Both the position numbers and the translations under genes were made by a program. The notes beneath the pieces were generated by a model that did not search any database, was not told where the DNA came from, and saw nothing but the letters and a program-made list of their open reading frames with translations. A DNA stretch of 64,000 nucleotides, from the NCBI GenBank assembly GCA_041650715.1, contig JBAZKQ010000002.1, positions 9,568 through 73,567 on the forward strand. Direction: 5' to 3'. The stretch comes from Patescibacteria group bacterium (GTDB taxonomy: Bacteria > Patescibacteriota > Patescibacteriia > Patescibacteriales > UBA12465). Positions 44,259 to 64,000 of the stretch are shown one piece after another (the stretch's first letter is position 1; every line of letters starts with the position of its first letter).

Positions 44259-44271
44259 GACAATTAAAACT

Positions 44272-45495: not shown

Positions 45496-45533
45496 ACCCA
45501 ACGGTTAGCAAAAAATAAAACAGAAATATAAAT

Positions 45534-45566
45534 AAAAAACAGACCCGATACCCGGGTCTGTTTTTA
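45534..45566. terminator. Bidirectional intrinsic terminator
   Basis: cagacccg (45540-45547) pairs with cgggtctg (45553-45560), flanked by an A-run and a T-run. Confidence 0.75.
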
Positions 45567-45583
45567 GGTGGAGTAATAGTATT

Positions 45584-46621: not shown

Positions 46622-46715
46622 ATTTTTTTGTTTACTCCGCCTTGGGCGGATGTATTTTGTTATTACTTTATTTATTAACTTTATAATTATATTAGAAATT
46701 GGGGCTAACGTCAAT

Positions 46716-47486: not shown

Positions 47487-47499
47487 AGATTGTTAATTA

Positions 47500-48978: not shown

Positions 48979-49080
48979 TTCTTGTATTTTTAGTACTATT
49001 TTTATATAATAAAGATAGAGCTTTGCGCTGATAAAGACAAGGCTTGCGCTTAATTCTCCTTATCTAATTATATCATACTT

Positions 49081-49518: not shown

Positions 49519-49648
49519 ACTCCTCGGCAAGGCTTTCCGCTTTTGACAAAAATCTCAAATCTGCTATGATATTAAAAGAAAGCTAGTTGTTTAATGCAAT
49601 TAGCTTTTTCTCTTAATTAATTAATTCTCATCGCCCAGTGGCGAATTA

Positions 49649-51043: not shown

Positions 51044-51054
51044 GTAAAAATTCT

Positions 51055-53064: not shown

Positions 53065-53084
53065 ATTAGAAAGAAGCAAAAATA

Positions 53085-53115
53085 AAAAACACCCTTTTAA
53101 TCGAGGGTGTTTTTG
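53085..53115 (+). terminator. Intrinsic terminator after hppA
   Basis: caccct (53090-53095) pairs with agggtg (53104-53109), followed by a T-run. A second hairpin (gacctg..caggtc) lies at about 53127-53150. Confidence 0.7.
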
Positions 53116-53170
53116 TAAATAAAAAAGACCTGGTTTATAAGCGCAGGTCTTTGAGTTGCTCGTTTGTTTT

Positions 53171-53503
53171 TTAAAGGTTAAGCCTCATTGCCAAACCATC
53201 AAGTTTTTGCCCATACTCTATGCAGTTGGGAACAAGTTCGGCCAGAAGTTTTAGATTGTCATCGCCCTTGTACATAATTTTGTTCTGCGAAGAAAGCTTA
53301 GGGTTAACAAGAGTTAAGAGCCCTTGGTCAGTCAATGTTTCGACATATTCAACCATTGATACCAAAAATACCAGACTCACGCCCGCGGAGATAAAGCGGC
53401 GTCTAATTTCTATGTTGACCTCTTCCATGGTAAATGGTTCCCCGGATAAGGCAAGTTGGTTGACTACGGAAATGGAAAGTTCAGTTTCGGTTAGTGTTTT
53501 CAT
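53171..53503 (-). CDS. Hypothetical protein (110 aa)
   Basis: Lies 5 nt downstream of the 53509-54126 gene, which suggests an operon. No family recognised. Confidence 0.4.
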   Translation of the reverse strand: MKTLTETELSISVVNQLALSGEPFTMEEVNIEIRRRFISAGVSLVFLVSMVEYVETLTDQGLLTLVNPKLSSQNKIMYKGDDNLKLLAELVPNCIEYGQKLDGLAMRLNL

Positions 53504-53508
53504 GAGAG

Positions 53509-54126
53509 TTATGGTTTATAAGTGATGCCGAGTTTGAGCAGAGCTTTCCCGTCACAGTACCAGCTATAGCCAGCACTGGCGAATATATTCCATTTTGGGG
53601 TGAGCGGTTGCTTGTATTTGAAATCAACCAGCGGTCCCCAGGAATCATAATAAAGTACAGCGCCAGTCGCCGTAAACCGCGAATAGCTAAAATCCAACGA
53701 CTGCCAGAAAAAACGAAATCCCCAGTTAAAGGGTTGGACTTTTTCTCCCGGTATGCCCGCTGAAACGCCAGACCAGGTCATAGCGGTTATGGAAAATTTT
53801 TCTCTTTGGATGGGGGCGACAAAACCCATAATTCCCATAACTGGTACGTTTAAGAAGTACTCGAAGGAGGGACCAACGCTGATGCGCTTACCTATCCCCT
53901 TAAGATAGACAATGTACATATCACTTGCGCTTATTGATATGTTGATGACGTCATTTCCCCTGGCGAAATTCGCTTCAGCGAATACGCCATTAGATAATGG
54001 CCCTTCACCACTGGAAAGGGAAATGGAGGATAGTTTAATTTCTTTTTTTGCTTCTGTTTGAGAAAAAGCGGACAATGTCTGTAAAAGGAGGATGGCTGAC
54101 GCCAAAAGCAGGTTGATTCTTTTCAT
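53509..54126 (-). CDS. Secreted protein with beta-barrel-like alternating pattern
   Basis: Signal peptide MKRINLLLASAILLLQTLSAFS. Aromatic- and Gly-rich alternating strands through to the C-terminal LKLGITYKP. Confidence 0.4.
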   Translation of the reverse strand: MKRINLLLASAILLLQTLSAFSQTEAKKEIKLSSISLSSGEGPLSNGVFAEANFARGNDVINISISASDMYIVYLKGIGKRISVGPSFEYFLNVPVMGIMGFVAPIQREKFSITAMTWSGVSAGIPGEKVQPFNWGFRFFWQSLDFSYSRFTATGAVLYYDSWGPLVDFKYKQPLTPKWNIFASAGYSWYCDGKALLKLGITYKP

Positions 54127-54339
54127 GGATTATTGTTTGTTTATTGGTTAATATTCAGTTTTCAAAGAATTAAAAAATATATCATTTCATTTAATTTTTG
54201 TCAAGAGTTAAGAAATAAAATCCTATTAAATTGGCTAATAAAGCTCACCTTGATTTTTTCCCTAAAAATGTTAATATAAAGTCAATTAAAGAAATATTAA
54301 AAGGCGAGCCAAAAGCTCGCTTCTAATTGCTAAAAGACT

Positions 54340-55650
54340 ATGCAAATCACCAAAAAAGATTTAGAAAAATCACAAATTGAATTAACCGTGGAATTAAGCA
54401 CGGAAGAGTTTGCGCCTTATATTGAAAAAGGTGCGCTTAAGGTTGCCGAAGAAGTAAAAATCGAGGGTTTCCGTAAAGGTAAAGTTCCTCTGGAGATTTT
54501 AAAGCAAAAAATTGGCGAAATGACGATTTTGGAGGAAGCCGCTAATATTGCAATCCGAAAAACAATCGACGAAGCGGTCGAAAAAAATACGATGGAGCGC
54601 CAGGCAATCGGCCAACCCCAAGTTAATATTACTAAGTTGGCGCCGAATAATCCTTTAGAATATAAAGTTATTGTTTCACTTTTACCGACGATAGCTTTAG
54701 GAAAATATAAGGGCTTAAACTTAAAAGCGGAAGAAGCAAAAATTGATGATAAGGAATTAGAAAAAGCGTTAAATGATTTACGCGAAATGCGCGCTCAGGA
54801 AGTTCTGGTTGAACGCGGTGCCGGGGCGGGAGATAAAATAACGATTGACGTCAGAATGTCTTTGGACAAAGTTCCGCTTGAAGATGGCGATCATAAAGAA
54901 TTGGCGATAATTTTGGGTAAGGATTATTTTGTGCCCGGCTTTGATGATAAAATGATGGGTATAAAACAGGACGAAGAGAGAAATTTTGAATTGCTTTATC
55001 CGGAAGATCATCATCAAAAAAATATTGCCGGCAAGATGGTTGAATTTAATGTTAAAGTCAAAGGTGTCTACGAAAGAAAGCTCTCGGAATTTAATGATGA
55101 GTTTGCCGGTTTCTTCCGTTTGAAAAATATGGAAGAACTAAAAACTAATTTAAAGGAAAGTTTACTCCAGGAGAAAAAACACAATGTCGACATGCGCAAT
55201 GAGTCCGAGTTGATCGGTAAAATTGTGGATGACACTAAATTCGGCGATTTACCGGACACGATTATTGAAAGCGAAAGCCGCAACATGATGATGGAGCTCG
55301 AACAGAGCGTTGTGCGCCAAGGCGGAAAATTTGAAGATTATTTGGGCCACCTTAAAAAAACTAAGGAGCAATTAATCTTGGAAATGATGCCGAACGCCGT
55401 GAAGCGCGTCAAGTCGGCGCTTGTCATTCGTGAGCTCGCGATAGTTGAAAAAATTGCCCCGGCCCATGAAGATATCCATAAAAAAATTGATGAGCTTGAA
55501 GCCCAGTATAAAGATAACGCGGATATCATCAAAATGATTCACGAACCTGATTATCATAATTCTTTAAATAACATTTTAACTAACGAGAAAGTAATCGCGA
55601 AATTAAAGGAATGGAATTATGCCCCAACTGGCGATAAACAAAAAAGCTAA
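54340..55650 (+). CDS. tig: Trigger factor
   Basis: N-terminal ribosome-binding motif (GFRKGKVP), a central FKBP-like region and a C-terminal arm domain. Confidence 0.9.
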   Translation: MQITKKDLEKSQIELTVELSTEEFAPYIEKGALKVAEEVKIEGFRKGKVPLEILKQKIGEMTILEEAANIAIRKTIDEAVEKNTMERQAIGQPQVNITKLAPNNPLEYKVIVSLLPTIALGKYKGLNLKAEEAKIDDKELEKALNDLREMRAQEVLVERGAGAGDKITIDVRMSLDKVPLEDGDHKELAIILGKDYFVPGFDDKMMGIKQDEERNFELLYPEDHHQKNIAGKMVEFNVKVKGVYERKLSEFNDEFAGFFRLKNMEELKTNLKESLLQEKKHNVDMRNESELIGKIVDDTKFGDLPDTIIESESRNMMMELEQSVVRQGGKFEDYLGHLKKTKEQLILEMMPNAVKRVKSALVIRELAIVEKIAPAHEDIHKKIDELEAQYKDNADIIKMIHEPDYHNSLNNILTNEKVIAKLKEWNYAPTGDKQKS

Positions 55651-56077
55651 CTTTGACTACCAGATTCAAGATAAATATGAAGCGGGCTTGGTTTTATTTG
55701 GCCATGAAGTTAAGGCGGTACGCGCCGGGCAGGTAAGTCTTAAAGGAAGTTTCATTAGTATTCGTACGAAAAACGGCCATACGGAATTATACTTAGTTAA
55801 TTGTCAGATATCTCCCTATAAAAGCGCCGGTCCGATGCCCGACTATAATCAAATGCGGGAGCGTAAATTGCTTTTAAAGCGTCAGGAAATTGACCATTTA
55901 TTAGGCAAGAAACAGACCGAGGGCTTGACACTAATCCCCCTAAAAATATATACTAATCATAGTTTTTTGAAGTTGGAATTTGCTATCGCGAAAGGTAAGA
56001 AAAAGTATGACAAACGAGAAACTATCAAAAAAAGAGATATCGACCGCCGCTTAAGATCGTTAACAAAGAGAAGTTAA
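55619..56077 (+). CDS. smpB: SsrA-binding protein SmpB
   Basis: Conserved N-terminus (NKKANFDYQIQDKYEAGLVLFGHEVKAVR) and a basic C-terminal tail. tmRNA follows 20 nt downstream. Confidence 0.9.
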   Translation: MPQLAINKKANFDYQIQDKYEAGLVLFGHEVKAVRAGQVSLKGSFISIRTKNGHTELYLVNCQISPYKSAGPMPDYNQMRERKLLLKRQEIDHLLGKKQTEGLTLIPLKIYTNHSFLKLEFAIAKGKKKYDKRETIKKRDIDRRLRSLTKRS

Positions 56078-56097
56078 GCAAAGAAAAAGGCTGATTA

Positions 56098-56483
56098 GGG
56101 GATGCCAGGCATCGACAGTCGGAGCTTTTTCTAAATATTCAAAACGCGCCTAGCTAATCGCGTTAAACTGGCTAAAAAAATACAAATGCCAAAACGGCAA
56201 GAGCATTCACTTGGTTAACTCCGAGCTATGCTCCAGTTATGGCCTAATTAATAAGGCTATAACCATCGGCGGATCGTGAGTCTTCATAACGGTCAACCGG
56301 TGTCATTCAATTGAAGATAGATATTATTTGCGCCTGACGAGTAATATCGAATCAAAATCGGGATCGCTTCAATCGCTTTTGTGTGGTTTTTGATGATTGA
56401 AGTTAAAAAAACGAAATCACTCTATTTTTGTAAATGTATTTAGGAAAACCGATTGGACATGGGTTCAAATCCCATCATCTCCA
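56098..56483 (+). ncRNA. ssrA: tmRNA (SsrA)
   Basis: - The 5' ggggatg pairs with the 3' catctcc, including the G3-U wobble (Ala identity).
- T-arm atggg-ttcaaat-cccat.
- Candidate tag reading frame GCC at 56188 to TAA at 56245-56247, encoding AKTARAFTWLTPSYAPVMA.
- Lies directly after smpB. Confidence 0.85.
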
Positions 56484-56487
56484 CATT

Positions 56488-56571
56488 GCCGCGGTGGCGG
56501 AACTGGTAGACGCGCTGGACTTAAAATCCAGTTGTAGCGATACAGTGCGGGTTCGATTCCCGCCCGCGGCA
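56488..56571 (+). tRNA. tRNA-Leu with anticodon UAA (class II, long variable arm)
   Basis: Acceptor gccgcgg/ccgcggc, anticodon stem ctgga/tccag, loop cttaaaa, variable arm tgta-gcga-taca, T-arm gcggg-ttcgatt-cccgc. Begins 4 nt after the tmRNA. Confidence 0.9.
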
Positions 56572-56594
56572 CTAGTAAGCAAGTTAAACGATAC

Positions 56595-56666
56595 GCGGGT
56601 ATCGTATAGTGGTTATTATGCGACCTTGCCAAGGTCGAGAGACGGGTTCGATTCCCGTTACCCGCT
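56595..56666 (+). tRNA. tRNA-Gly with anticodon GCC
   Basis: Acceptor gcgggta/tacccgc, anticodon stem cgacc/ggtcg, loop ttgccaa, T-arm acggg-ttcgatt-cccgt. Confidence 0.85.
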
Positions 56667-56673
56667 CAATAAC

Positions 56674-56702
56674 AAAAAAGACTCCTCTTGGAGTCTTTTT
56701 TG
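56674..56702 (+). terminator. Intrinsic terminator after the tmRNA/tRNA-Leu/tRNA-Gly cluster
   Basis: agactcc (56679-56685) pairs with ggagtct (56690-56696), followed by a T-run. Confidence 0.8.
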
Positions 56703-56711
56703 TTATTGATA

Positions 56712-56888
56712 GGAAGAAGAACGGGAATCGAACAGGTTGGAAGCGAGATATGAGCCGAGACGGAAGGCGAGGCGAGTAATCGAGCGTCGGACGAATATCT
56801 GGGGGATATTCGGATGCCAACCCTGGACAAGTGAGCGAGGCGCAATTCTGGCGCCGAGTGAGCGCGAGGATGGGGATTAGTAAGCCAG
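56712..56888. other. G+C-rich structured non-coding element B, tRNA-adjacent
   Basis: Visibly G+C-rich in an A+T-rich context.
- 56720-56733 (aacgggaatcgaac) is the exact reverse complement of the tRNA-Gly T-arm at 56646-56659.
- Hairpins: cgaatatc-tgggg-gatattcg (about 56801-56821), ggcgc-aattctg-gcgcc (about 56839-56855), and caggttgg..ccaaccctg.
- Shares AGTGAGCGC and AGCGAGG with element A. Confidence 0.5.
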
Positions 56889-57097
56889 ATAAATAGAGCT
56901 TGAAAGTACTTTTTATTATTTAAAGCGTGAATTACAGTAGCAAAGCCGGCTTGATTCATACGTTTTATATTTACCTAAATTTGTATAATTACGTTTCATA
57001 AATCATGCTTGGCATTGCATTAAGATTGAATTTAATTTTGTAAAATATTATATAGTTATTGTCAAGATTTATTTAAAGGAAGCTCTGGTGTAAACTT

Positions 57098-57712
57098 ATG
57101 ATAATAATTAAAATACTAAATATGCCGCCCGAAAATTTCTGTAATTTTTTAAATATTCCTTTTTATTTGAAATATGAATTTTGGTTGACCATCGCTAGTA
57201 TTGCATTTGCTGGATTTGCGTTATTCGAAACAATGAAATTAAGAAAGGAATCGCAAAGGCAAAATATACTCGCCAAACAGCCATATCTATCCCTTAAACT
57301 AAAAAAAGATGAAGAAAATAAAAGCTCTAAGCAGATACTTGTAAATAATTCTCTGAACCCTGCCTTTAATATATTTGTTCTTTTTGGAAGTGCTGATAAA
57401 TATTTAATCACAAAAGAAGGTGGCGTTATTAGCTCGCTGGGCCCAAACGAAAGAAGGCAGATTAATGATGATGAGTTAACCACGATAAATAGATCTGCTA
57501 TTTTGGAAAGAATTAAATTTTTGAATAAACTTATAAATAAGTTTGAAACTAAAAGCACAAGTTTTCACGCTATTTTCTATGAAGATATATTCGGAAATAA
57601 AATGTATTCAGTTGGCTTGCCTTCATTGATCATGGAAAATGGGTATAATGGTTTTTTTAATGTAGGGTATGTTGAGGGTGCGAGGACAAAAAATAGAACT
57701 GTTATCATATAA
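57098..57712 (+). CDS. Hypothetical membrane-anchored protein
   Basis: One TM helix (WLTIASIAFAGFALF) followed by a roughly 150-aa soluble domain of unknown family. Very A+T-rich. The start is uncertain; the Met at 57122 is possible. Confidence 0.4.
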   Translation: MIIIKILNMPPENFCNFLNIPFYLKYEFWLTIASIAFAGFALFETMKLRKESQRQNILAKQPYLSLKLKKDEENKSSKQILVNNSLNPAFNIFVLFGSADKYLITKEGGVISSLGPNERRQINDDELTTINRSAILERIKFLNKLINKFETKSTSFHAIFYEDIFGNKMYSVGLPSLIMENGYNGFFNVGYVEGARTKNRTVII

Positions 57713-57725
57713 GTATGCTAAATAA

Positions 57726-58403
57726 ATGAGTGTTGCACTAAAGTTTAAAGAATTTCAAAAAGAATCAAAAAGGGCCCAATATGGGATAGGCCATGAGTTT
57801 GGTCTGATTTTATCATTAATTGATTTTGGGAATGTTGATTATTGGTATGAATTTGATAATTTTAATCGAGATGGAAAAGCCTTAAAGGATAACGAAAAGT
57901 TAAATGTTGACCTAGAATATTTAAAACAATTCTGTGATTTATTTTCTTATAATTCAAAATTTTATTTTGGTTTGGATTCTAAGAAAAAAGAATCAATACA
58001 TTTAATAGCTTCAGCTAGAAATTTTTTTGGTAAAACGAATGTTGTAACAAAAGAAATACAATATATACAACATTATTTAAATGATTTAGAAAAAAAGGAG
58101 AATACTCGCTCGGTAACTTACGATATTCATGGACAATATATAAAAATACCAAAGTGCAATTTTGATGTAGAAATCTGCATTGATGCCATTAGATTGGCTG
58201 ATAAATATGACACCCTATGTTTATTTTCCGGAGACGCTGACTTTACGGCGTTGTTAAGATTTTTAAAATATCAAAAGAAGAAAATAATTTTGATTAAAGG
58301 CGGGCGCGTGCTTCATAGTTTAGTAAAAGCCTCCGATTTAGTCATTAATGCTCAGGAAATAAAAAATGAATTAGTCTTTATAAAGCAAAAATCCCGCCGA
58401 TAG
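57726..58403 (+). CDS. NYN/LabA-like (PIN-related) ribonuclease-domain protein
   Basis: NYN motif order: LIDFGNVDYW, then KCNFDVEICIDAIRLA, then LFSGDADFTALLRFLKYQKKKIILI. Confidence 0.6.
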   Translation: MSVALKFKEFQKESKRAQYGIGHEFGLILSLIDFGNVDYWYEFDNFNRDGKALKDNEKLNVDLEYLKQFCDLFSYNSKFYFGLDSKKKESIHLIASARNFFGKTNVVTKEIQYIQHYLNDLEKKENTRSVTYDIHGQYIKIPKCNFDVEICIDAIRLADKYDTLCLFSGDADFTALLRFLKYQKKKIILIKGGRVLHSLVKASDLVINAQEIKNELVFIKQKSRR

Positions 58404-58568
58404 GCGAGATTTGCGGATCTCGGACCCGAATCCACGGGCAGGGCAATAAAAATTTATTGCAATTAAAATATACAATAATAAATTTGTATTGTCAAGGAAA
58501 TCATAATTTTTTTATCCGCTCAAGATATTGCCGCTTTTAGAATAACAGTCCAAAATTCTATCGGGTAA

Positions 58569-59573
58569 CTACTTATTAGTTTTAATTAACCTTTCAGTAT
58601 TTAGTTTTTTTATATAGGCATCATAGCGTCTGTATGATTTTTCTTTTGCAATTAGGCTCCTTTTTTCTTTTACATTTGTATTACTATCTTTTAATTTTTC
58701 TTTTACAAAACTTCTTTTTCTAAGCGTATTTGCGCCAGCAATGACTTTATTCCTACAAAGCTTTAGGCCTAAATGTTCTACATTTCCTGTCGTATATGAT
58801 GAAATATTTTTTTTGTCGTTTAATAAAAGCGAATGGTTTGTGTCGTAGTTTTTTAAAATACTCTCAATTTTATCATAAACCTCATTCATTAAATCCTCAC
58901 TAACGTTATATGCGCTAATTCCGATGTCATCAACATATATGGTTAATCTTGGGTTATGGCCCTTAAGCATTTTTTTAACAGCCCAGCTAACTCTTAAAAA
59001 TAAATCTAAATTACACAATGTTGCAAGCCTGGTTGATGTGGCAAACCCCCGAGCAATGGTTTTTCTTTTTGAATTACTATTTTTTTGTCCGACTGACACG
59101 CAACACAAATTAGCTATTAATTTAGAAGCTTTTTTGCTACACCCACATTTATTATTTAGAAGGATTTCAATACGTTTGCTGTCATTTTGTTCAAAAAAAC
59201 GTCTAATGTCTGCCCCAAGCTTAATTCTTTTTCGATGGCCACCAAGCAAACTAAGACTTGCCTGTATGTGATTTTTTTTCGAGACTCCGCCAAAAATAAA
59301 ATCGGGTAATATTTTATCAGTGGGGGCTAAAACTTTTTTATTAATTAAATTTAATAATTTACCGAGAGGGTTGCCATATGAGGTTCTAACGTATTTTTCA
59401 TTTTTAAAATCAGATGCTTTTATGTTGTCTCTCCAATATTTGTCATAATTAGCCAAAACGTCATTAATTAAAATTAGCGCCTCACCATGGGTAAAATTAC
59501 TTCCTGATATTCTTTTTGCTAATTCATTCTTGCTTCTGATATTTATATTGGGATAACGATTATTTTCTGGCAT
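58569..59573 (-). CDS. Stand-alone reverse transcriptase (compact, unclassified)
   Basis: - RT motif 1: LGKLLNLINKKVLAP.
- Motif 2: FGGVSKKNHIQAS...LGADIRRFFEQN.
- Motifs 3/4: ARGFATSTRLATLCNLDL.
- Motif 5: YVDD, encoded at 58926-58937 (checked by hand).
- Motifs 6/7: LLLNDKKN...VEHLGLKL.
- Lys-rich helical tail. No fused effector, maturase or endonuclease domain. Confidence 0.8.
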   Translation of the reverse strand: MPENNRYPNINIRSKNELAKRISGSNFTHGEALILINDVLANYDKYWRDNIKASDFKNEKYVRTSYGNPLGKLLNLINKKVLAPTDKILPDFIFGGVSKKNHIQASLSLLGGHRKRIKLGADIRRFFEQNDSKRIEILLNNKCGCSKKASKLIANLCCVSVGQKNSNSKRKTIARGFATSTRLATLCNLDLFLRVSWAVKKMLKGHNPRLTIYVDDIGISAYNVSEDLMNEVYDKIESILKNYDTNHSLLLNDKKNISSYTTGNVEHLGLKLCRNKVIAGANTLRKRSFVKEKLKDSNTNVKEKRSLIAKEKSYRRYDAYIKKLNTERLIKTNK

Positions 59574-59889
59574 ATTTTTTTAAATTTTTCGCTTTTTTGC
59601 TTATTAGTGATATTTGCAATTTTTCACCTAATTTTATCATTTCTTCTTCTATTTTAGTTAAGCTGATTTTACTAATATCAATATTTCCATATAAAAAAGG
59701 GGTGATCGAATTAGGATGCACCTCAAGTTTGTCAGCTAAATTCAATATAAATTTTTTAGATATTTCTTTTTGTCCAGATTCTATCATCGAAACCAATACC
59801 GTAGAAACAGAAAGAGCGTTCGCAAGCTCCTCTTGAGTCAATCCACTATTTTTTCTAATTTCTTTTAATAATTCAGGGAATGATACCAT
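59560..59889 (-). CDS. XRE-family helix-turn-helix protein
   Basis: HTH_3 pattern LKEIRKNSGLTQEELANALSVSTVLVSMIESGQKEIS. Its 3' end overlaps the RT start codon by 14 nt. Confidence 0.8.
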   Translation of the reverse strand: MVSFPELLKEIRKNSGLTQEELANALSVSTVLVSMIESGQKEISKKFILNLADKLEVHPNSITPFLYGNIDISKISLTKIEEEMIKLGEKLQISLISKKAKNLKKYARK

Positions 59890-59896
59890 AAAGAGA

Positions 59897-60052
59897 TTAC
59901 AGGGCGACTATTTTATGAGGTCTACGATGATATGGGCAATCTGCAAAAGTATTTGCATTATTACACATAATCTTCGCGTGTTTTTCATAAATAGCCGCCC
60001 CTAAAATTGAAGGGCACAAATTAAAACTTTTAACTTTGGCTTTCATAATCAT
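59897..60052 (-). CDS. Possible 51-aa Cys/His-containing small ORF, first gene of the RT operon (not in the ORF track)
   Basis: Hand translation gives MIMKAKVKSFNLCPSILGAAIYEKHAKIMCNNANTFADCPYHRRPHKIVAL. The stop lies 7 nt upstream of the HTH ATG. No convincing Shine-Dalgarno sequence. Confidence 0.3.
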   Translation of the reverse strand: MIMKAKVKSFNLCPSILGAAIYEKHAKIMCNNANTFADCPYHRRPHKIVAL

Positions 60053-60454
60053 ATGGGTTTAGTTATTATTTGAATAATAAGGGACCTTTATAAAAATGAT
60101 TACCTAATTTTCTTGTGACCATCATCACCGTGGTACCCTCCAACAATAAACTTTGATGATCAAAAGATTATCAAGCAATCACTGTCAGAACATGAATGTT
60201 AGCTGTATATTATTTATAAATAATTAATATATGCGCTAAAAGTTCTGCGCTAGAGCAAATGTAGCATTAGTCTTATTAGCGCAAAGCATTGAGCATGGCG
60301 TTATAATAAGATGACACATTAATTTACTCTCCCGGAAAAAATCTTTCCTTTTAAGATAGCAAAGAGAAAGAGACAGATATCAAGATGGATATCTAAAATA
60401 ACGGTTAAGCGTAGTCACAAAATTTTAATTTGTTAATATACTATCCTAGTTAAT

Positions 60455-60483
60455 ATATTATACTTTTTGTATAAGTATGTCAA
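60455..60483 (-). promoter_or_regulatory. Near-consensus promoter reading toward the RT operon
   Basis: On the minus strand, TTGACA (60483-60478) is followed either by a 17-nt spacer and TAATAT (60460-60455), or by a 15-nt spacer and TATAAT (60462-60457). Confidence 0.5.
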
Positions 60484-60637
60484 GGGTGTCCATGGGGTGT
60501 GCTCCTGGCAAGCACACCAAACTCCCCAATATTAAAGATTGAGTTAAATTACCCCCTTCCTATATTGCCTCCCCACAAAAAATTGCGCCGCCATTGTGAT
60601 CGAAAAGTGATAAATTTCTTTTTTTGTGATAATAGTC

Positions 60638-60667
60638 AAAAACTACCCTAACCATAAGGTAGTTTTT
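60638..60667. terminator. Symmetric hairpin with flanking A-run and T-run (bidirectional terminator-like)
   Basis: aaaaactacc (60638-60647) pairs with ggtagttttt (60658-60667). The loop is ctaaccataa. Confidence 0.55.
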
Positions 60668-60780
60668 TGTACCCCCAAAACCCTATTTCCTTGAATCTTA
60701 TTAATAGTTGACTAAAATAGAGCTATTATGATATATTTTTTTGTCATACAAATAATGTCGAACCTTTAAAATTTATAGCC

Positions 60781-61194
60781 ATGAAAAGCAAAACTGTATT
60801 ACTAATTGAACCCAATCGGAGTATTCGGGAAAACCTGAAAAACTCCTTGGAGGCCATCGGCGATAAAGTGTTTATTGCCAAGGACGAAGATGAAGCATTG
60901 GGTGTTTTAAAAGGGAATGAAATAGATGTAATTATAATTGAGCCTCTTTTAAATACTGATTTTTTGAGTAATAAAAAAGAGTTCATAAGAAATGTTTTGT
61001 CTGGTGGCACTGGTGCCGTATTAATAAGCAACATCAGGACAGCTTATAGGAAAAAGTTTGATACAATATTCTACACGGTAGTTTCCGCAAGCAAACTTTT
61101 CGCTATTAGCCCCGAATTAGAAGATGTTATTTACATTCGCAAGCCGCAGTCCACTGAATTCATAATTCTGGTAGTCCATAGTGAGGGAGGGTAG
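60781..61194 (+). CDS. Stand-alone receiver-like (pseudo-REC) domain protein
   Basis: CheY-like layout: VLLIEPN replaces the acidic DD pocket. DVIIIEPLL puts Glu where the phospho-acceptor Asp normally sits. The conserved Lys-Pro is present (IRKP). Upstream promoter TTGACT-N18-TATATT with an extended TG. Confidence 0.5.
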   Translation: MKSKTVLLIEPNRSIRENLKNSLEAIGDKVFIAKDEDEALGVLKGNEIDVIIIEPLLNTDFLSNKKEFIRNVLSGGTGAVLISNIRTAYRKKFDTIFYTVVSASKLFAISPELEDVIYIRKPQSTEFIILVVHSEGG

Positions 61195-61266
61195 TCAATC
61201 GAATCAAAGAAACAAATAGGAAACCAAAATGACAGGATTCGTTCAAACAACCATAAAAACTTAACC

Positions 61267-61776
61267 ATGAAAGAGCCAGTTAATTCACCAAAACATTTCC
61301 ACGAATCAATTGTGGGCGTAATCGAAAAATGCAAGGACACGGACGCGCCATTATTGATCGACCTGATTACCGGTACAAAAATTGTAAATAATTACGATGC
61401 CATCGTTTGGGCCTTGTCAAAAAAGGCTGCGGTATTTGGAAAAGCTTACATAGACCTGGTTAATAGTGTCATTCTGCAAAAAACAAATGATTATCATCTA
61501 TTTATGAATGACGCCGATAACCTCGAACAAGCATTAGAATTTGGCTTTGAATTTCTCCCCCTTGGATCGGAATATTTAGGACCAAGAAGGAAAATCCGAT
61601 TAATGCGAAATTGTCTGGTTACGGGTTCTCCAATGGTGGCTGAAATTGCAGTAATTGATGCTGAAGCGAATGATCGGCGTATAGTGCTTACTGCCGCCTG
61701 GGGAAAAGATGATAAAATTTATCGCTTCCAAAAAAATTGGCCGGGCGATATCAAAGACTGGTCTGATAAGTGGTAG
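61267..61776 (+). CDS. Hypothetical protein (169 aa), co-oriented with the REC-like gene
   Basis: No recognisable family. Followed by terminator ggggaac..gttcctc plus T-run at about 61812-61840. Confidence 0.45.
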   Translation: MKEPVNSPKHFHESIVGVIEKCKDTDAPLLIDLITGTKIVNNYDAIVWALSKKAAVFGKAYIDLVNSVILQKTNDYHLFMNDADNLEQALEFGFEFLPLGSEYLGPRRKIRLMRNCLVTGSPMVAEIAVIDAEANDRRIVLTAAWGKDDKIYRFQKNWPGDIKDWSDKW

Positions 61777-61850
61777 CAATTTGCACCAACAATAAAAAAG
61801 ATTATAAATCGAAGGGGAACTAATAAAGTTCCTCTTTTTTAATAGCTTAT

Positions 61851-61877
61851 AAAAAACGCCATTTTTGGTGGCGTTTG
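61851..61877 (-). terminator. Intrinsic terminator, copy 1 of an identical 27-nt repeat
   Basis: aaaaaacgccatttttggtggcgtttg. On the minus strand the stem is aaacgcca/tggcgttt followed by a T-run. An identical copy lies at 62296-62322. Confidence 0.8.
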
Positions 61878-61903
61878 TTGTGTGTCTAAGGAGACGACTG
61901 TTT

Positions 61904-62191
61904 TTAGGTTTCTAAATAATCAGCCAGAGCGTCTTTTGAGATTTTGCTTAAGCAAAGTCCAACTGTCTGGCCCTTGGTGGCGGAGTTGACCTCATCATGA
62001 AAGAACTCAATTCTTTTAATGTGTTCTTTGATTGGTGTTTTATAACCGTTTTCGATTTTGACGTCATCTCCTTTAGAGATGGTGCCATTAGTGACTTCAC
62101 CTACGGCCATAAGTCCGCAGGTCTCTTGCTGTACTTGGTACACGGTAACCAGAGAGCCGTCTGTAGTGACCATAATAAATTTGAGATTCAT
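61904..62191 (-). CDS. Stand-alone EF-Tu domain-II-like beta-barrel protein, paralog 1
   Basis: 95 aa. CGLMAVGEVTNGTISKGDDVKI...IKRIEFFHDEVNSATKGQTVGLCL follows the EF-Tu/IF2/SelB domain II pattern (G.v..G.v..G.i..Gd.v.i ... i.sie.....v..A..G..vgl.l). Confidence 0.55.
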   Translation of the reverse strand: MNLKFIMVTTDGSLVTVYQVQQETCGLMAVGEVTNGTISKGDDVKIENGYKTPIKEHIKRIEFFHDEVNSATKGQTVGLCLSKISKDALADYLET

Positions 62192-62232
62192 GGGACTTTC
62201 TTTTTTTTAAATATTTATAAAGTTCTAACTAC

Positions 62233-62261
62233 AAATTAACAAAAATGGTGGTACCTGGCAA
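62233..62261 (-). promoter_or_regulatory. Promoter of paralog 1
   Basis: On the minus strand, TTGCCA (62261-62256), a 17-nt spacer, then TAATTT (62238-62233). Confidence 0.5.
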
Positions 62262-62295
62262 GCGACCCGACTATTATTTTTAGAAAAGTATAAAT

Positions 62296-62322
62296 AAAAA
62301 ACGCCATTTTTGGTGGCGTTTG
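62296..62322 (-). terminator. Intrinsic terminator, copy 2 of the identical 27-nt repeat
   Basis: The same 27-mer as at 61851-61877. Confidence 0.8.
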
Positions 62323-62343
62323 CTTTCTGCACTCGCGATGAGC

Positions 62344-62640
62344 CTACTGACTTTTATTAATTAAATAATCAATCAGAGCACTTTTAGAAGTTTGGCCTAA
62401 ACAGACTCCGACAAGTTCTCCTTGGATAGCGCCTCGGACTTCCTCGTGGTTTTTTTCAATTCTTTTTAGCCCATCGTAGATTGGCATCTTGTCGGCATTC
62501 TGGATACTGATCATTTCTCCCTTACTGAGACCTCCGCTTGTGATTTTGCCCACAGCTACAAGACCGCATGGTTTTTGCATTATTTGGTCAACATCCATGA
62601 CTCCTCCGCTTCCGGAAATTAGCTTAAATTTTAGCTTCAT
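62344..62640 (-). CDS. Stand-alone EF-Tu domain-II-like beta-barrel protein, paralog 2
   Basis: 98 aa and alignable end to end with 61904-62191. Compare MKLKF/MNLKF, CGLVAVGKITSGGLSKGEMISI, RIEKNHEEVRGAIQGELVGVCL and ALIDYL/ALADYL. Confidence 0.55.
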   Translation of the reverse strand: MKLKFKLISGSGGVMDVDQIMQKPCGLVAVGKITSGGLSKGEMISIQNADKMPIYDGLKRIEKNHEEVRGAIQGELVGVCLGQTSKSALIDYLINKSQ

Positions 62641-62683
62641 CGCTCAATGTATTTTTGGTTAATATTAGGAATGAACTAAATGT

Positions 62684-62712
62684 AAATTAACAAAAAAGAT
62701 GAAATATTGCAA
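62684..62712 (-). promoter_or_regulatory. Promoter of paralog 2
   Basis: On the minus strand, TTGCAA (62712-62707), a 17-nt spacer, then TAATTT (62689-62684). The geometry and the TTTTTGTTAATTT core match the paralog 1 promoter. Confidence 0.5.
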
Positions 62713-62752
62713 GAACCAAACTTCCCCTTTTAAATTATGATATAATTAATCT

Positions 62753-63136
62753 ATGAATATCCAATTACAAAATCTCGTAAAAGAATTATTAAGCCTCCAT
62801 AAACTATTGCTTGACGGGCAGCGGGCGGAATATGAATTAAAAAATGGAGTAGTCTTAAATAATAATGATTATTTTAATTTGGTCGTTAACCATTCCGACT
62901 TTAAGTGGTTGCGCGCGCTTTCGGAAGTGATTGCTATAATTGATGAGGAATCGGAACAAGGCGAAGATAATAAAGATAAAGTCAGCGCGCTCTTAATGAA
63001 TTTAGAAAAAATGCTAAGGGCCGAAGGGTCTGAAGATGAGTTTTCCCTTAAGTTTCGCTCGGCTTTGGCCGGCAGTGATATTTTAGCAGACCGGAAAGAA
63101 TTGGTACTGACAAAAATTAAAGAATTGCTTCGTTAA
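62753..63136 (+). CDS. Hypothetical acidic helical protein (127 aa)
   Basis: No recognisable family. A terminator-like caggctcccacctg plus T-run follows. Confidence 0.4.
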   Translation: MNIQLQNLVKELLSLHKLLLDGQRAEYELKNGVVLNNNDYFNLVVNHSDFKWLRALSEVIAIIDEESEQGEDNKDKVSALLMNLEKMLRAEGSEDEFSLKFRSALAGSDILADRKELVLTKIKELLR

Positions 63137-63218
63137 TTTCAAAATAAGCAAAACAAAAAGCAGGCTCCCACCTGTTTTTTTGTATTGAAAAGCTTTTGGG
63201 ATATTACTCTGAAAAAGT

Positions 63219-63659
63219 TTAACGCCGGACGAAGATTGTTTCACCATTGTCGGTGAGCGGAGCGGAAACGGTTACTTGTCCGGAGTCATCCTTAGAAATC
63301 ATATAAGTAATCCCGTTCGTCGAACCGCCGGCCGGATCTATCGGCAGGACGCTTAAATATTTTTCGTTAGCGGTTAAAACGGAGAGATTAATTAGTCCGG
63401 CGCAGTTGCCTCCCGTTTTGCAGATTTCAGTCGAGGTGGCGGTAATAGTTCGGGGAAGCGTACCGTGATTATCAGCTGCATATTGTGAAACCGCGTCAAG
63501 AATTCGGCTGACATCGACGCGCCTTTGCATATTGTTTTTGTCGCCCAGCTTGTCGCCGGGGTTAAAAGCAAAAACCGCCACGCCCGTTAAAATAAAAAGG
63601 GCAGTTATAACCAGTAGGACCTCCAAAAGGGCAAAGCCCCGATAATTAGAATTTTTCAT
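63219..63659 (-). CDS. Type IV pilin-like protein (prepilin N-terminal methylation motif)
   Basis: Start trimmed to MKNSNYRGFALLEVLLVITALFIL at 63659. This gives the class III signal G|FxLxE followed by a hydrophobic helix. Confidence 0.75.
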   Translation of the reverse strand: MKNSNYRGFALLEVLLVITALFILTGVAVFAFNPGDKLGDKNNMQRRVDVSRILDAVSQYAADNHGTLPRTITATSTEICKTGGNCAGLINLSVLTANEKYLSVLPIDPAGGSTNGITYMISKDDSGQVTVSAPLTDNGETIFVRR

Positions 63660-63818
63660 AGGATTAAGATTAAAGTATGGGGATTGAACCCACTTAATAT
63701 TATAACACACCATATTACCTACTTATTGACTAAATTACTAAAATATGTTATATTTAAGTTAGACATTGCGTCATATATTGATTAAAATAGAGGAGACACA
63801 TATTAATCATTTGAGCCC

Positions 63819-64000
63819 ATGACTAAGGATAAGAAACACAATCAAAAATCGCTTGAACCGGAGTGGCAGGATCGGCTTTTATTAGAAAGTCTGGTCGCCC
63901 AGATTTTACCCGAGCTTATTACTTCCGAACCGGCCAAGGCCGATCAAGTTATTGCCGCCCTGAAAAATGATAAATTAAGTTTAGCTGATTTTTTAATTAC
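63819..64000 (+). CDS. 5' fragment of an ORF running off the window, possibly a PilB/GspE-type secretion ATPase N-terminus
   Basis: The ATG at 63819 is open to the window end: MTKDKKHNQKSLEPEWQDRLLLESLVAQILPELITSEPAKADQVIAALKNDKLSLADFLI. The function guess rests on pilin adjacency and an N-terminal-domain-like pattern only. Confidence 0.35.
   Translation, partial: MTKDKKHNQKSLEPEWQDRLLLESLVAQILPELITSEPAKADQVIAALKNDKLSLADFLI

What the first reader, a model, noticed from the sequence alone, without database searches (positions are those of the whole stretch)
60053..60483. About 400-nt structured leader between a near-consensus promoter and the RT operon: candidate template or guide ncRNA
A minus-strand TTGACA/TAATAT promoter at 60483-60455 lies about 400 nt upstream of the first operon ORF. 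No ORF of 60 aa or more lies in between. Read on the minus strand, the interval contains:
- A hairpin agatatc-N6-gatatct (60373-60392).
- A weak hairpin plus T6.
- Three copies of a GCGCTA(A)/TAGCGC module at about 60233-60283. They can pair in mutually exclusive ways: gcgctaa with ttagcgc, or gcgcta with tagcgc.
- A 13-bp DNA palindrome TTTGAT-G-ATCAAA at 60152-60164, a plausible operator for the XRE-HTH.
- The only strong Shine-Dalgarno sequence in the region (GGAGGG, 60141-60136), 7 nt upstream of a 20-codon mini-ORF (60128-60066).

Retron and DRT-type RTs need a cis-encoded structured RNA, usually just upstream and co-oriented. This leader is in that position.
Basis: partly seen in the sequence, partly recalled or inferred. 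Interest (0 to 1): 0.65.

Follow-up and report, generated by a model that had tools for sequence, protein, structure and literature searches.

The report
Type VI retron hybrid-RNA leader
The 400-base "leader" is the conserved, highly folded non-coding part of the RNA that a bacterial anti-virus reverse transcriptase system (a Type VI retron) works on; the system is of a recently described kind, here in a little-studied bacterial group and with some unreported design details.

Summary
Its main reading, a cis-encoded structured RNA for the RT, holds; several details do not.

**What it is.** The operon is a distant Type VI retron (small ORF, HTH, RT) in a Patescibacteria genome. More than 50 homologous loci keep the same promoter and the same RNA architecture.

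**Structure.** On 19 aligned loci, 52 base pairs in six helices are 92% paired, and 44 of them show compensatory changes. They include:
- an a1/a2-type closing helix (60433-60419 with 60030-60016)
- a pseudoknot

A seventh, alternative helix also covaries.

- The "operator" palindrome is one strand of RNA helix P4.
- The "GGAGGG Shine-Dalgarno" is one strand of the pseudoknot, and this genome hardly uses SD sequences.
- The mini-ORF and the GCGCTA modules are not conserved.

A better operator candidate is a conserved dyad, TATAC-N5-GTATA, inside the promoter.

**Boundary and coding.** The RNA element runs past 60053 into the annotated 51-aa ORF. The peptide under selection there is a nested 26-aa Arg/Ile-rich ORF (59988-59908), bracketed by a covarying helix.

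**By analogy only** (Retron-Vpa2 and Retron-Sen3): RT and HTH bind this RNA, part of it is reverse-transcribed, and toxin translation is gated.

The parts
60455..60483 (-). Sigma-70-type promoter: -35 TTGACA 60483-60478, 17-nt spacer, -10 TAATAT 60460-60455. The predicted transcript start is near 60448.
   Evidence: The same TTGAC...TATAAG/T arrangement is conserved 510-620 nt upstream of the HTH start in homologous loci.
60457..60475 (.). Dyad CTTATAC-AAAAA-GTATAAT inside the promoter, overlapping the -10 element. It is a candidate operator for the retron HTH; this role is inferred.
   Evidence: The core TATAC-N5-GTATA is present in 38 non-redundant homologous loci. Arms are 5-9 bp and their outer positions change symmetrically. 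No binding data exist.
60419..60433 (-). a1, the 5' strand of closing helix P1. It pairs with a2 at 60030-60016.
   Evidence: Inverted repeat of 15 nt with 14 of 15 complementary, 388 nt apart. On the alignment, 11 of 11 pairs carry compensatory changes and 91% of cells are paired.
60410..60418 (-). DR1 (GTGACTACG): a co-varying direct repeat of the P4 5' strand. It can pair with the P4 3' strand as an alternative helix.
   Evidence: Direct-repeat scan. The alternative helix is 84.5% paired, with 8 of 9 pairs compensatory.
60374..60395 (-). It is msr-like.
   Evidence: 97% of cells are paired and 4 of 6 pairs have compensatory changes in 19 loci. The same holds in 24 loci aligned by the covariance model.
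60342..60371 (-). Its loop is GCTATC.
   Evidence: A hairpin is present at this place in all 24 loci with different stem sequences; median z is -3.07 and z is below -1.5 in 21 of 24. A column-wise test was not possible because of the alignment register.
60186..60334 (-). Variable region: two long hairpins, V1 60334-60248 and V2 60247-60186. It contains the three GCGCTA modules. By analogy with Vpa2 and Sen3 it is the candidate reverse-transcription template (msd).
   Evidence: In homologues the region is 74-184 nt, with no sequence conservation, and folds into 1-2 long hairpins (z of about -3 to -4.8 in most). The template role is inference only.
60095..60183 (-). Composite hairpin P3/P4. P3 pairs 60180-60173 with 60105-60098.
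   Evidence: P3: 6 of 8 pairs compensatory. P4: 7 of 9 pairs compensatory and 91% paired.
60133..60144 (-). P7 5' strand, GTTGGAGGGTAC, in the apical loop of P4. It pairs with 60017-60006 to form a pseudoknot with P1.
   Evidence: The duplex is 10-13 bp, with z below -2 in 18 of 19 loci. On the alignment it is 87.5% paired with 8 of 9 pairs compensatory. By my reading of the listing, the same helix is the best duplex, at a constant distance, in about 42 of 50 loci.
60056..60086 (-). P6: an AT-rich hairpin just upstream of the ORF A start codon.
   Evidence: It appears in the window's minimum-free-energy fold. Hairpins of differing sequence are seen by eye at the same place in the alignment; this was not tested column-wise.
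60016..60030 (-). a2, the 3' strand of P1. It lies inside ORF A (codons 8-13).
60006..60017 (-). P7 3' strand, GTGCCCTTCAAT, immediately 3' of a2.
59897..60052 (-). ORF A (51 aa), the frame that gene callers annotate in the related loci. It runs through a2, P7, P5 and ORF B, and stops 7 nt before the HTH ATG.
   Evidence: ATG(A) is invariant in the 19 aligned loci. The frame is open in 51 of 52 loci, although in the overlap its third codon position is the most conserved. P(open | ORF B peptide with random synonymous codons) is 0.25 per locus.
59908..59988 (-). ORF B (26 aa, MKNTRRLCVIMQILLQIAHIIVDLIK), nested in the +1 frame. It is the probable small toxic protein (SP analogue).
   Evidence: An ATG-started ORF of 20-48 aa is present in 51 of 52 loci, with consensus LRILRIILQIVRILKD. 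Entropy by codon position is 1.29, 0.70 and 1.66, a coding signature. Toxicity is inferred.
59985..60002 (-). P5 5' strand: AGGGGCGGC at 60002-59994, with an extension that pairs the ORF B start codon.
   Evidence: P5 is 97% paired with 8 of 9 pairs compensatory. Median dG is -19.6 kcal/mol and z is below -2 in 41 of 50 loci. ATG(B) is paired in 33 of 50 loci.
59900..59918 (-). P5 3' strand: GTCGCCCTG at 59908-59900, with its extension. It starts at the last base of the ORF B stop codon (TAG, 59910-59908) and ends 1 nt before the ORF A stop (59899-59897).
59560..59889 (-). Cro/CI-type HTH protein (109 aa).
   Evidence: Pfam HTH_3, E = 5.7e-12. PADLOC HTH_VI, E = 2.6e-12.
58569..59573 (-). Reverse transcriptase (334 aa, catalytic YVDD). 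It overlaps the HTH gene by 14 nt.
   Evidence: PADLOC RT_VI, E = 6.5e-19, profile positions 2-266 of 279. D215 and D216 are invariant in 45 homologues.

Best explanation
The interval is the non-coding 5' part of the 'hybrid RNA' (hyRNA) of a distant Type VI retron: an msr-msd-like ncRNA fused to a small toxin ORF, followed by HTH and RT.

**Shown here**
- A conserved promoter at 60483-60455 is the only conserved promoter-like element upstream of the operon, so it most likely drives an RNA that starts near 60448. The transcript itself was not observed.
- That RNA has a conserved, covarying architecture:
  - closing helix P1 (a1/a2)
  - two msr-like hairpins (SL1, SL2)
  - one or two long hairpins of variable sequence (V1, V2)
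  - a composite hairpin P3/P4, whose apical loop forms pseudoknot P7 with the 11-12 nt next to a2
  - helix P5, which brackets a nested 26-codon ORF (ORF B) and pairs its start codon
- The 3' strand of P4 covaries with two alternative 5' partners, DR1 and DR2. This suggests two conformations.

**Inferred by analogy with Retron-Vpa2 and Retron-Sen3**
- RT and HTH bind this RNA.
- RT copies part of it into single-stranded msDNA. V1/V2 is the most likely template.
- Phage-induced changes in msDNA level, or in HTH activity, remodel the 3' riboregulator (P7, P5).
- The hydrophobic ORF B peptide is then made and arrests the infected cell.

**Inferred from sequence alone**
- The HTH also represses its own promoter through the TATAC-N5-GTATA dyad.
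- ORF A is translated mainly to carry ribosomes through the structure to the HTH start, which has no SD.
For: **Family assignment**
- RT best matches PADLOC RT_VI (6.5e-19; next is RT_IV at 8.8e-10). HTH best matches HTH_VI (2.6e-12).
- The order small ORF, HTH, RT, with an HTH/RT overlap, is kept in all fetched relatives.
- Neighbouring genes in the relatives are restriction-modification, PIN and MutH/Vsr genes, i.e. defence islands.

**Structure**
- The unconstrained fold of the window sequence reproduces every consensus helix except the pseudoknot P7, which a nested fold cannot show. For the leader alone z = -6.56.
- RNAalifold on 19 loci predicts 43 pairs, 36 of them with compensatory changes.
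- With P7 added there are 52 pairs: 91.9% of cells paired against 33-45% when partners are slid, 44 pairs compensatory, and 0 of 500 shuffles as good.
- P5 holds in 41 of 50 loci and P7 in about 42 of 50.
- A covariance model of the 5' domain hits once per locus, at the expected place, in 24 loci, and once in the 64-kb window at 60432-60333.

**Promoter**
- The promoter and its dyad are conserved.

**Published parallels**
- Vpa2 has a hyRNA of about 470 nt holding msr-msd plus the SP coding sequence, a sequestered SP start, a1/a2-like repeats and conserved 7-nt direct repeats.
- Sen3 has an ncRNA closed by terminal inverted repeats, a variable internal stem-loop as template candidate, and a second inverted repeat flanking the SP.

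**ORF B**
- It has a coding signature and an Arg/Ile-rich amphipathic character.
- It resembles the hydrophobic C-terminal helix of published SPs and of a canonical Yersinia-phage Type VI SP.
Against: - There are no transcript, cDNA or phenotype data, so template use is purely by analogy.
- The RT is a distant member: 66 bits to RT_VI, against 346 bits for a canonical Type VI RT.
- No Rfam family matches. This includes the retron msr family, assuming (from my own knowledge; the library contents were not checked) that Rfam holds one.
- No conserved branching G could be pinned down, and several candidate G residues exist.
- P1 encloses about 400 nt, far more than canonical retron ncRNAs, so the true priming duplex could be P1, DR1 with the P4 3' strand, or P7.
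- Published Type VI retrons differ from one another in mechanism: msDNA-gated translation in Vpa2, post-translational control in Sen3. The gating step here is therefore open.
Confidence: 0.85

Rival explanations
1. The interval is an ordinary long 5' UTR or riboregulator. It only controls translation of the small ORFs and of HTH-RT, like a type I toxin mRNA, and is never used as an RT template.
For: - P5 and P7 clearly sequester translation start regions.
- Six Type VI retrons, including a CPR one, gave no detectable ssDNA in E. coli.
Against: - SL1, SL2, the a1/a2 closure and a variable long-hairpin region are the standard anatomy of retron ncRNAs. They are conserved next to an RT with an intact YVDD in every locus.
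- In Vpa2 and Sen3 the equivalent RNA is reverse-transcribed.
Confidence: 0.08
2. ORF B together with HTH is a self-standing toxin-antitoxin pair. The RT and leader are a separate, co-located element with an unrelated role.
For: HTH resembles TA antitoxins and controller proteins. Sen3 HTH neutralises SP directly.
Against: - The leader, ORF A/B, HTH and RT are co-inherited as one unit, with overlapping genes, in more than 50 loci.
- RNA helices physically link the leader to the ORF B region (P1, P7).
Confidence: 0.04
3. The RT belongs to another RT class, and the leader is that element's RNA. The candidates are a diversity-generating retroelement (the dominant RT type in CPR bacteria), a group II intron, or a DRT/UG system.
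For: DGRs make up about 80% of CPR RTs. Pfam sees only a weak RVT_1 match.
Against: - No template/variable repeat pair exists: within 20 kb there is no direct or inverted repeat of 40 nt or more, apart from one 41-nt AT-rich pair at 73% identity.
- No group II intron or other Rfam family matches.
- All eight PADLOC matches at E <= 0.1 are retron-type RT models, and none is a DRT or Abi model.
Confidence: 0.01
4. One reading: the HTH binds the 60152-60164 palindrome, and the GGAGGG motif drives translation of a 20-codon leader peptide.
For: Both motifs exist at the stated coordinates.
Against: - The palindrome is helix P4's 5' strand. It covaries with an RNA partner and loses its dyad symmetry in relatives.
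- GGAGGG is pseudoknot strand P7.
- The mini-ORF is absent or in another frame in relatives.
- The genome shows almost no SD motifs upstream of 43 long ORFs.
Confidence: 0.02

Closest known systems
Retron-Vpa2 hybrid RNA (hyRNA), Type VI retron of Vibrio parahaemolyticus (Zhang et al., bioRxiv 10.1101/2025.10.22.683967)
   Same: - One long structured transcript carries both the msr-msd-like part and the small toxin ORF.
- It is followed by HTH and RT.
- The toxin start is sequestered in RNA structure.
- Long-range a1/a2-like inverted repeats are present.
- Short direct repeats co-vary.
   Different: - In Vpa2 the outer inverted repeat closes after the SP coding sequence. Here a2 lies upstream of the toxin ORF, and a separate helix (P5) brackets that ORF.
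- Here the toxin ORF is only 20-26 codons in most loci and is nested in a longer ORF in another frame.
- A pseudoknot (P7) is supported here.
- The host makes almost no use of SD sequences.
- The RT is only distantly related.
- msDNA and defence have not been tested.
Retron-Sen3 / cl2075 ncRNA of Salmonella (Garcia-Rodriguez et al., bioRxiv 10.64898/2026.04.27.721009)
   Same: - The ncRNA is closed by terminal inverted repeats upstream of the SP.
- A long internal stem-loop with a non-conserved centre is the template candidate.
- A second conserved inverted repeat flanks the SP gene.
- The SP region is itself under RNA-structure selection.
   Different: - There is no conserved stem-loop upstream of a1 here; only about 15 nt separate the predicted start from a1.
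- The Sen3 SP is 79 aa with its own RBS, and the HTH has an RBS.
- No overlapping ORF or promoter dyad is described there: searches of the text for 'palindrom', 'autoregul', 'operator' and 'reading frame' gave nothing relevant.
Canonical Type VI retron in Yersinia phage vB_YenM_56.17 (OM046627.1, locus L075)
   Same: The order is SP (54 aa), HTH (105 aa), RT (310 aa), with about 350 nt of upstream non-coding DNA. The SP has a basic N-terminus and a hydrophobic C-terminal helix, like ORF B.
   Different: - Its RT scores 346 bits to RT_VI and its HTH 120 bits to HTH_VI, against 66 and 45 bits for the window proteins.
- No long second ORF overlaps its SP.
Classical retron msr-msd RNAs (e.g. Ec86); features taken from established knowledge of retrons
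   Same: The RNA lies upstream of and co-oriented with the RT. It has a1/a2 terminal pairing, conserved msr hairpins and a variable msd hairpin.
   Different: - The enclosed domain is about 400 nt, against roughly 150-250 nt.
- There is no Rfam match.
- The branching G is not identifiable.
- The effector is encoded in the same RNA.
hok/mok/sok type I toxin-antitoxin mRNA of plasmid R1 (my own knowledge; an analogy of mechanism only)
   Same: A small hydrophobic toxin ORF overlaps a second ORF in another frame, whose translation is needed to open the toxin start. Long-range 5'-3' pairing keeps the mRNA locked.
   Different: There is no sequence relationship. The release signal there is 3' processing and decay of an antisense RNA, not a reverse transcriptase. 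The role of ORF A here is untested.

Membership tests
Type VI retron (Mestre 2020 classification; PADLOC RT_VI/HTH_VI) | The RT falls in the Type VI RT clade. | tested here: met
   RT_VI is the best PADLOC model: E = 6.5e-19, 66 bits, profile positions 2-266 of 279. The next model, RT_IV, scores 36 bits. The match is distant, since a canonical Type VI RT scores 346 bits. No phylogeny was built.
Type VI retron | A Cro/CI-type HTH gene lies immediately upstream of, or overlaps, the RT gene. | tested here: met
   HTH_3 at 5.7e-12 and HTH_VI at 2.6e-12. The HTH stop overlaps the RT start by 14 nt. The same arrangement is seen in relatives.
Type VI retron | A small accessory protein (SP) gene lies between the ncRNA and the HTH gene. 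| tested here: met
   Two overlapping small ORFs are present in 51 of 52 loci. ORF B carries the coding signature and a hydrophobic helix. There is no sequence match to any library.
Type VI retron hyRNA / retron ncRNA | A structured ncRNA lies upstream on the same strand, with terminal inverted repeats (a1/a2) and internal stem-loops, conserved across homologues. | tested here: met
   P1, SL1, P3, P4, P5 and P7 total 52 pairs, 91.9% paired, 44 of them compensatory. SL2 is supported and the variable hairpins.
Type VI retron hyRNA | The start region of the SP is sequestered in RNA structure. | tested here: met
   P5 brackets ORF B in 41 of 50 loci, and its start codon is paired in 33 of 50.
Type VI retron hyRNA | Conserved 7-nt direct repeats are present (Zhang et al.). 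| tested here: inconclusive
   A co-varying 7-9-nt direct repeat, DR1/DR2, exists. Both copies can pair with the P4 3' strand. Equivalence to the Vpa2 repeats could not be checked because that sequence is not held.
Retron (any type) | RT-dependent multicopy single-stranded DNA is templated by the ncRNA. | not testable with these tools
   This needs expression and cDNA detection. Type VI retrons often show none at baseline.
Retron (any type) | A conserved branching G next to a1 primes synthesis through a 2'-5' link. | tested here: inconclusive
   No invariant G lies directly after a1 in the 19-locus alignment. By eye in that alignment, conserved G residues sit at the start of DR1 and in an (A/U)CGG motif 3' of the P7 5' strand. 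The branch site cannot be assigned.
Retron msr RNA family in Rfam (assumed from my own knowledge to be in the library) | A match to the covariance model. | tested here: not met
   No hit at gathering thresholds in the window. No credible hit at E <= 10 in 59800-60750.
Diversity-generating retroelement | A template repeat and variable repeat pair lies near the RT. | tested here: not met
   No repeat of 40 nt or more exists within 44000-64000, apart from one AT-rich 41-nt pair at 73% identity.

The most novel reading that the evidence does not exclude
In this Patescibacteria clade the retron's toxin would not be the ORF that gene callers annotate in the related loci. It would be a peptide of about 21-26 aa, Arg/Ile-rich and amphipathic (ORF B), nested in the +1 frame of a longer ORF (ORF A).

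- ORF A's amino-acid sequence in the overlap is unconstrained, but its frame is kept open in 51 of 52 loci.
- ORF A starts inside the RNA domain closed by P1. It reads through a2, the pseudoknot strand P7 and helix P5, and stops 2-35 nt before an HTH start that has no SD.
- Ribosomes on ORF A would therefore act as the 'opener', in the manner of hok/mok. They would link the fold of the retron RNA, and so reverse transcription and RNase H removal of the P4/P7 partner strands, to translation of the toxin and of HTH-RT.
- The P1/P7 pseudoknot and the DR1/DR2 alternative helices would form the switch.
Probability: 0.35. Interest if true: 0.7.

Novelty: new member of a known kind. Interest (0 to 1): 0.5.

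Why it matters
- Type VI retrons were the one retron type with no recognised ncRNA until 2025. Only two have been dissected, both from Proteobacteria, and they work differently.
- This locus and its 50+ relatives show that the hybrid-RNA design reaches a distant RT branch in Patescibacteria. Those bacteria have tiny genomes, many live as episymbionts, and most of their RTs are DGRs.
- The divergence among these loci gives a covariation-backed secondary-structure model. It includes a pseudoknot and a pair of alternative helices, which I did not find described in the parts of the two preprints I read. The model can be tested directly by compensatory mutagenesis.
- The analysis suggests that the small-protein frame called by gene finders in the related loci (the 49-52-aa frame-A ORFs) is not the frame under amino-acid selection. 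It also points to a candidate HTH operator in the promoter.
- Practically, this is a compact 334-aa RT with a well-defined RNA partner. That is of interest for retron-based DNA production.

Tried and rejected
- **Rfam.** The gathering scan of the whole window found only tmRNA and tRNAs. The permissive scan of 59800-60750 gave only chance-level snoRNA/sRNA hits, the best at E = 0.49.
- **Alignment-free test of P1.** Running duplexfold of the a2 region against 300 nt upstream was uninformative (median z -0.25), because any 300-nt AT-rich target offers strong chance duplexes. P1 therefore rests on the 19-locus alignment.
- **Strict scan for column-consistent direct repeats** (at least 10 of at least 12 loci): nothing. 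A relaxed scan found DR1/DR2.
- **Three-strand switch idea** (the P7 3' strand re-pairing with the P5 5' strand, as the local hairpin 60016-59996 suggests). It works in the window. By eye it is not conserved in relatives such as L018 and L068. I dropped it; no formal test was run.
- **Protein database search with the ORF B alignment:** Exact look-up of ORF A, ORF B and eight relatives' ORF B peptides found none in the collection, which is uninformative.
- **Family libraries.** Pfam and PADLOC gave no family for ORF A. NCBIfam gave none for ORF A or ORF B.
- **Island ends.** No att-like direct repeat of the tRNA or tmRNA 3' ends flanks the locus.
- **SL2.** RNAalifold did not recover it on MAFFT or covariance-model alignments, so it was tested per sequence instead.
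the operator at 60152-60164, the GGAGGG/mini-ORF pair and the GCGCTA switch.
Full report
**1. Observation**

- Promoter: TTGACA 60483-60478, a 17-nt spacer, TAATAT 60460-60455 (10 of 12 matches).
- No ORF of 60 aa or more lies before 60052.
- The agatatc/gatatct hairpin is at 60394-60375, about 2 nt off the stated position.
- A second hairpin at 60371-60342 is followed by T6.
- The modules are GCGCTAA 60282-60276, TAGCGC 60252-60247 and TTAGCGC 60239-60233.
- The palindrome is at 60164-60152.
- GGAGGG is at 60141-60136, 7 nt before a GTG-started 20-codon ORF that ends at 60066.

A promoter-like match means little in this AT-rich DNA: 20 sites were found against 11.1 +/- 3.9 in shuffles. The interval, however, folds much better than shuffles (-111.9 kcal/mol, z = -6.56).

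**2. What the operon is**

The genes on the minus strand are:

| Gene | Coordinates | Length |
|---|---|---|
| small ORF | 60052-59897 | 51 aa |
| HTH | 59889-59560 | 109 aa |
| RT | 59573-58569 | 334 aa, YVDD |

- PADLOC gives RT_VI (6.5e-19) and HTH_VI (2.6e-12) as the best models. Pfam gives HTH_3 and a weak RVT_1 match.
- The identical RT protein is recorded from a Patescibacteria MAG.
- 67 related loci came from species-representative genomes, mostly Patescibacteria. Seven closer loci came from metagenomes. The small ORF-HTH-RT order is called in all the metagenomic relatives and recovered in most of the genome loci. The closer metagenomic loci often lie among restriction-modification, PIN and MutH/Vsr genes.
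- A canonical Type VI retron in a Yersinia phage scores far higher on the same models: 346 and 120 bits, against 66 and 45 bits here. The window clade is therefore a distant branch.
- DGRs dominate CPR RTs, but a DGR is excluded because there is no template/variable repeat pair within 20 kb. Rfam finds no group II intron or any other family here.

**3. Literature**

Two preprints define what the upstream RNA of Type VI retrons is.
- In Retron-Vpa2 a "hybrid RNA" of about 470 nt holds the msr-msd and the translationally repressed small toxin (SP). It binds RT and HTH, and msDNA accumulation de-represses SP translation.
- In Retron-Sen3 an ncRNA closed by terminal inverted repeats precedes the SP. 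A second inverted repeat flanks the SP, ssDNA is made constitutively, and HTH is the SP antitoxin.
- Neither text mentions Patescibacteria, an operator, or overlapping reading frames.

**4. Comparative anatomy**

I aligned 19 loci from the predicted transcript start to the HTH start (alignment A2).

*Promoter.*
- The promoter is conserved. It contains the dyad TATAC-N5-GTATA, with arms of 5-9 bp whose outer positions change symmetrically. The dyad overlaps the -10 element.
- 38 non-redundant loci have this core 400-700 nt upstream of the HTH start.
- The left arm has no promoter role, so this is the best operator candidate for the HTH. That is an inference.

*Helices predicted without guidance.* RNAalifold found five helices, with 36 of 43 pairs carrying compensatory changes.

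| Helix | Window coordinates |
|---|---|
| P1 (a1/a2) | 60433-60419 with 60030-60016 (also the longest inverted repeat) |
| SL1 | 60395-60374 |
| P3 | 60180-60173 with 60105-60098 |
| P4 | 60163-60155 with 60123-60115 |
| P5 | 60002-59994 with 59908-59900 |

*Counts and controls.* 92.8% of cells are paired, against 30-48% when partners are slid by 1-3 columns, and 0 of 500 shuffles reach the observed values.

*Other elements.*
- SL2 (60371-60342) forms in all 24 loci recovered by a covariance model of the 5' domain, with different stem sequences. That model hits once per locus, and once in the 64-kb window.
- Between SL2 and P3 lies a region of 74-184 nt with no sequence conservation. It folds into one or two long hairpins: V1 60334-60248 and V2 60247-60186 in the window. 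This is the usual look of an msd, and it matches the Sen3 "variable SL3".

**5. Two structural features found here**

*Pseudoknot P7.*
- The apical loop of P4 (60144-60133, GTTGGAGGGTAC) pairs with the 11-12 nt immediately 3' of a2 (60017-60006).
- The duplex is 10-13 bp in 18 of 19 loci, with very different sequences, for example GGAAGGT/ACCTTCC, GGAATGTCC/GGACATTCC, GGAACGC/GCGTTCC and ATAAAAGATT/AATCTTTTAT.
- On the alignment it is 87.5% paired with 8 of 9 pairs compensatory.
- By my reading of the listing, it is the best duplex, at a constant distance, in about 42 of 50 loci, Saccharibacteria included.
- With P1 it has H-type pseudoknot topology. a2 plus the P7 3' strand make one continuous paired strand of about 26 nt.

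*Alternative helices.*
- The segment just 3' of a1 (DR1, 60418-60410) is a co-varying direct repeat of the P4 5' strand (DR2).
- DR1 can pair with the P4 3' strand: 84.5% paired, 8 of 9 pairs compensatory.
- So two mutually exclusive helices are both under selection. This recalls the conserved 7-nt direct repeats of Vpa2.

**6.
- The palindrome is DR2, the P4 5' strand. It is an RNA helix strand, and its dyad symmetry is lost in relatives.
- GGAGGG is the P7 5' strand. Upstream of 43 long ORFs in the window there is almost no SD-like motif, with the caveat that starts were taken as the first ATG.
- The mini-ORF is absent or in another frame in relatives.
- The GCGCTA modules are stems within the non-conserved V1/V2 hairpins.

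**7. The small-ORF region**

51 of 52 non-redundant loci have two overlapping ORFs with a fixed +1 offset.

*ORF A.*
- It is 47-87 aa, and it is the frame that gene callers annotate in the related loci. ATG(A) is invariant in the 19 aligned loci.
- It ends 2-35 nt before the HTH ATG.

*ORF B.*
- It is ATG-started and 20-48 aa. In the window it is 59988-59908, MKNTRRLCVIMQILLQIAHIIVDLIK.
- Its core consensus is LRILRIILQIVRILKD.
- Entropy by its codon position is 1.29, 0.70 and 1.66, the normal coding pattern. Read in frame A, the same columns make the third position the most conserved.
- So ORF B is the peptide under selection. It resembles the hydrophobic C-terminal helix that is essential in published SPs.

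*Why ORF A is still kept open.*
- With random synonymous codons for ORF B, frame A stays open with probability 0.25 per locus.
- The third frame carries 0.15 stops per codon.
- Upstream of ORF B the other frames carry 0.08-0.10 stops per codon.

*Structure around ORF B.*
- P5 brackets ORF B from 6 nt before its start codon to its stop codon.
- P5 holds in 41 of 50 loci (median -19.6 kcal/mol) and pairs the start codon in 33 of 50.
- ORF A reads through a2, P7 and P5.
- My inference is that ORF A serves to carry ribosomes through the structure to the HTH start, which has no SD. It may also open ORF B, as mok does for hok (my own knowledge).
- The Yersinia Type VI SP has no such overlapping ORF.

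**8. Mechanism**

*Shown:*
- promoter conservation
- RNA architecture with covariation
- sequestration of the ORF B start
- the genetic linkage of all parts

*Inferred from Vpa2 and Sen3:*
- binding by RT and HTH
- reverse transcription of part of the RNA (V1/V2 most likely)
- trigger-dependent release of the toxin

*Unknown:*
- the priming duplex and the branching G
- whether gating is translational (like Vpa2) or post-translational (like Sen3)

**9. Verdict**

The finding is real and its headline interpretation is right. It is a new, divergent member of a kind described only in 2025-2026. It carries features that I did not find in the two preprints: the pseudoknot, the alternative helices, the promoter dyad and the nested toxin ORF.

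Noticed in passing
Related loci (e.g. L001, L009, L012, L019, L023, L035, L042, L062, L069, L073, L074), about 24-36 nt upstream of the promoter dyad. Not present in the window.: A DnaA-box-like 9-mer, TGTGGATAA with at most 1 mismatch, sits immediately upstream of the -35 element in 21 of 38 homologous retron promoters. The background rate is 0.015 per 55 nt. At that position the window instead has a G+C-rich hairpin, 60518-60496 (GGTGTGCT-N7-AGCACACC).
   Followed up: partly
window 56098-56667: A tmRNA gene (56098-56486) is directly followed by tRNA-Leu(taa) and tRNA-Gly(gcc), about 1.9 kb beyond the RT stop. This is a classic island-insertion site, but no att-like direct repeat was found. 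ARAGORN's tag peptide, AKTARAFTWLTPSYAPVMA, looks unusual.
   Followed up: partly
window 57098-58403 (+): Two genes are convergent with the RT: an unknown 204-aa protein and a 225-aa NYN-domain (predicted RNase) protein (Pfam NYN 8.9e-13; weak PADLOC NYN and HEC-09 hits). They may be further defence-island cargo.
   Followed up: no
window 58495-58467 (-): The best promoter-like match of the region, TTGACA-17-TATATT (11 of 12), lies just downstream of the RT stop and points antisense into the NYN gene. No ORF of 45 aa or more follows it. A similar 26-nt sequence recurs at 57041-57066.
   Followed up: no
window 60667-60638: A perfect-stem hairpin, AAAAACTACCCTA / TAAGGTAGTTTTT, is flanked by T/A runs on both strands. 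It looks like a bidirectional terminator insulating the retron promoter from upstream transcription.
   Followed up: no
whole window (43 ORFs of 150 aa or more): Almost no Shine-Dalgarno-like motif is seen upstream of long ORFs, and the upstream regions are A/T-rich. This genome appears to initiate translation largely without SD. Starts were taken as the first ATG, so the result is approximate.
   Followed up: partly
L075 (Yersinia phage vB_YenM_56.17, OM046627.1, 19407-20827) and L076 (Citrobacter plasmid NZ_CP137189.1): Canonical Type VI retrons occur on mobile elements. One is an SP-HTH-RT set between the tail-completion genes (GpR, GpS) and the baseplate gene GpV of a Peduoviridae phage. 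The other is an HTH-RT set (no SP gene annotated) on a mobilizable plasmid, between MazEF and ParDE toxin-antitoxin modules.
   Followed up: partly
L068-L074 and the unfetched P0008 contig: The closest relatives of this retron lie next to N4/N6 methyltransferases, an Eco57I-type enzyme, ResIII/restriction endonuclease, PIN_12, and MutH/Vsr genes. A serine recombinase and replication-initiator genes are also nearby. This indicates mobile defence islands in Patescibacteria.
   Followed up: no
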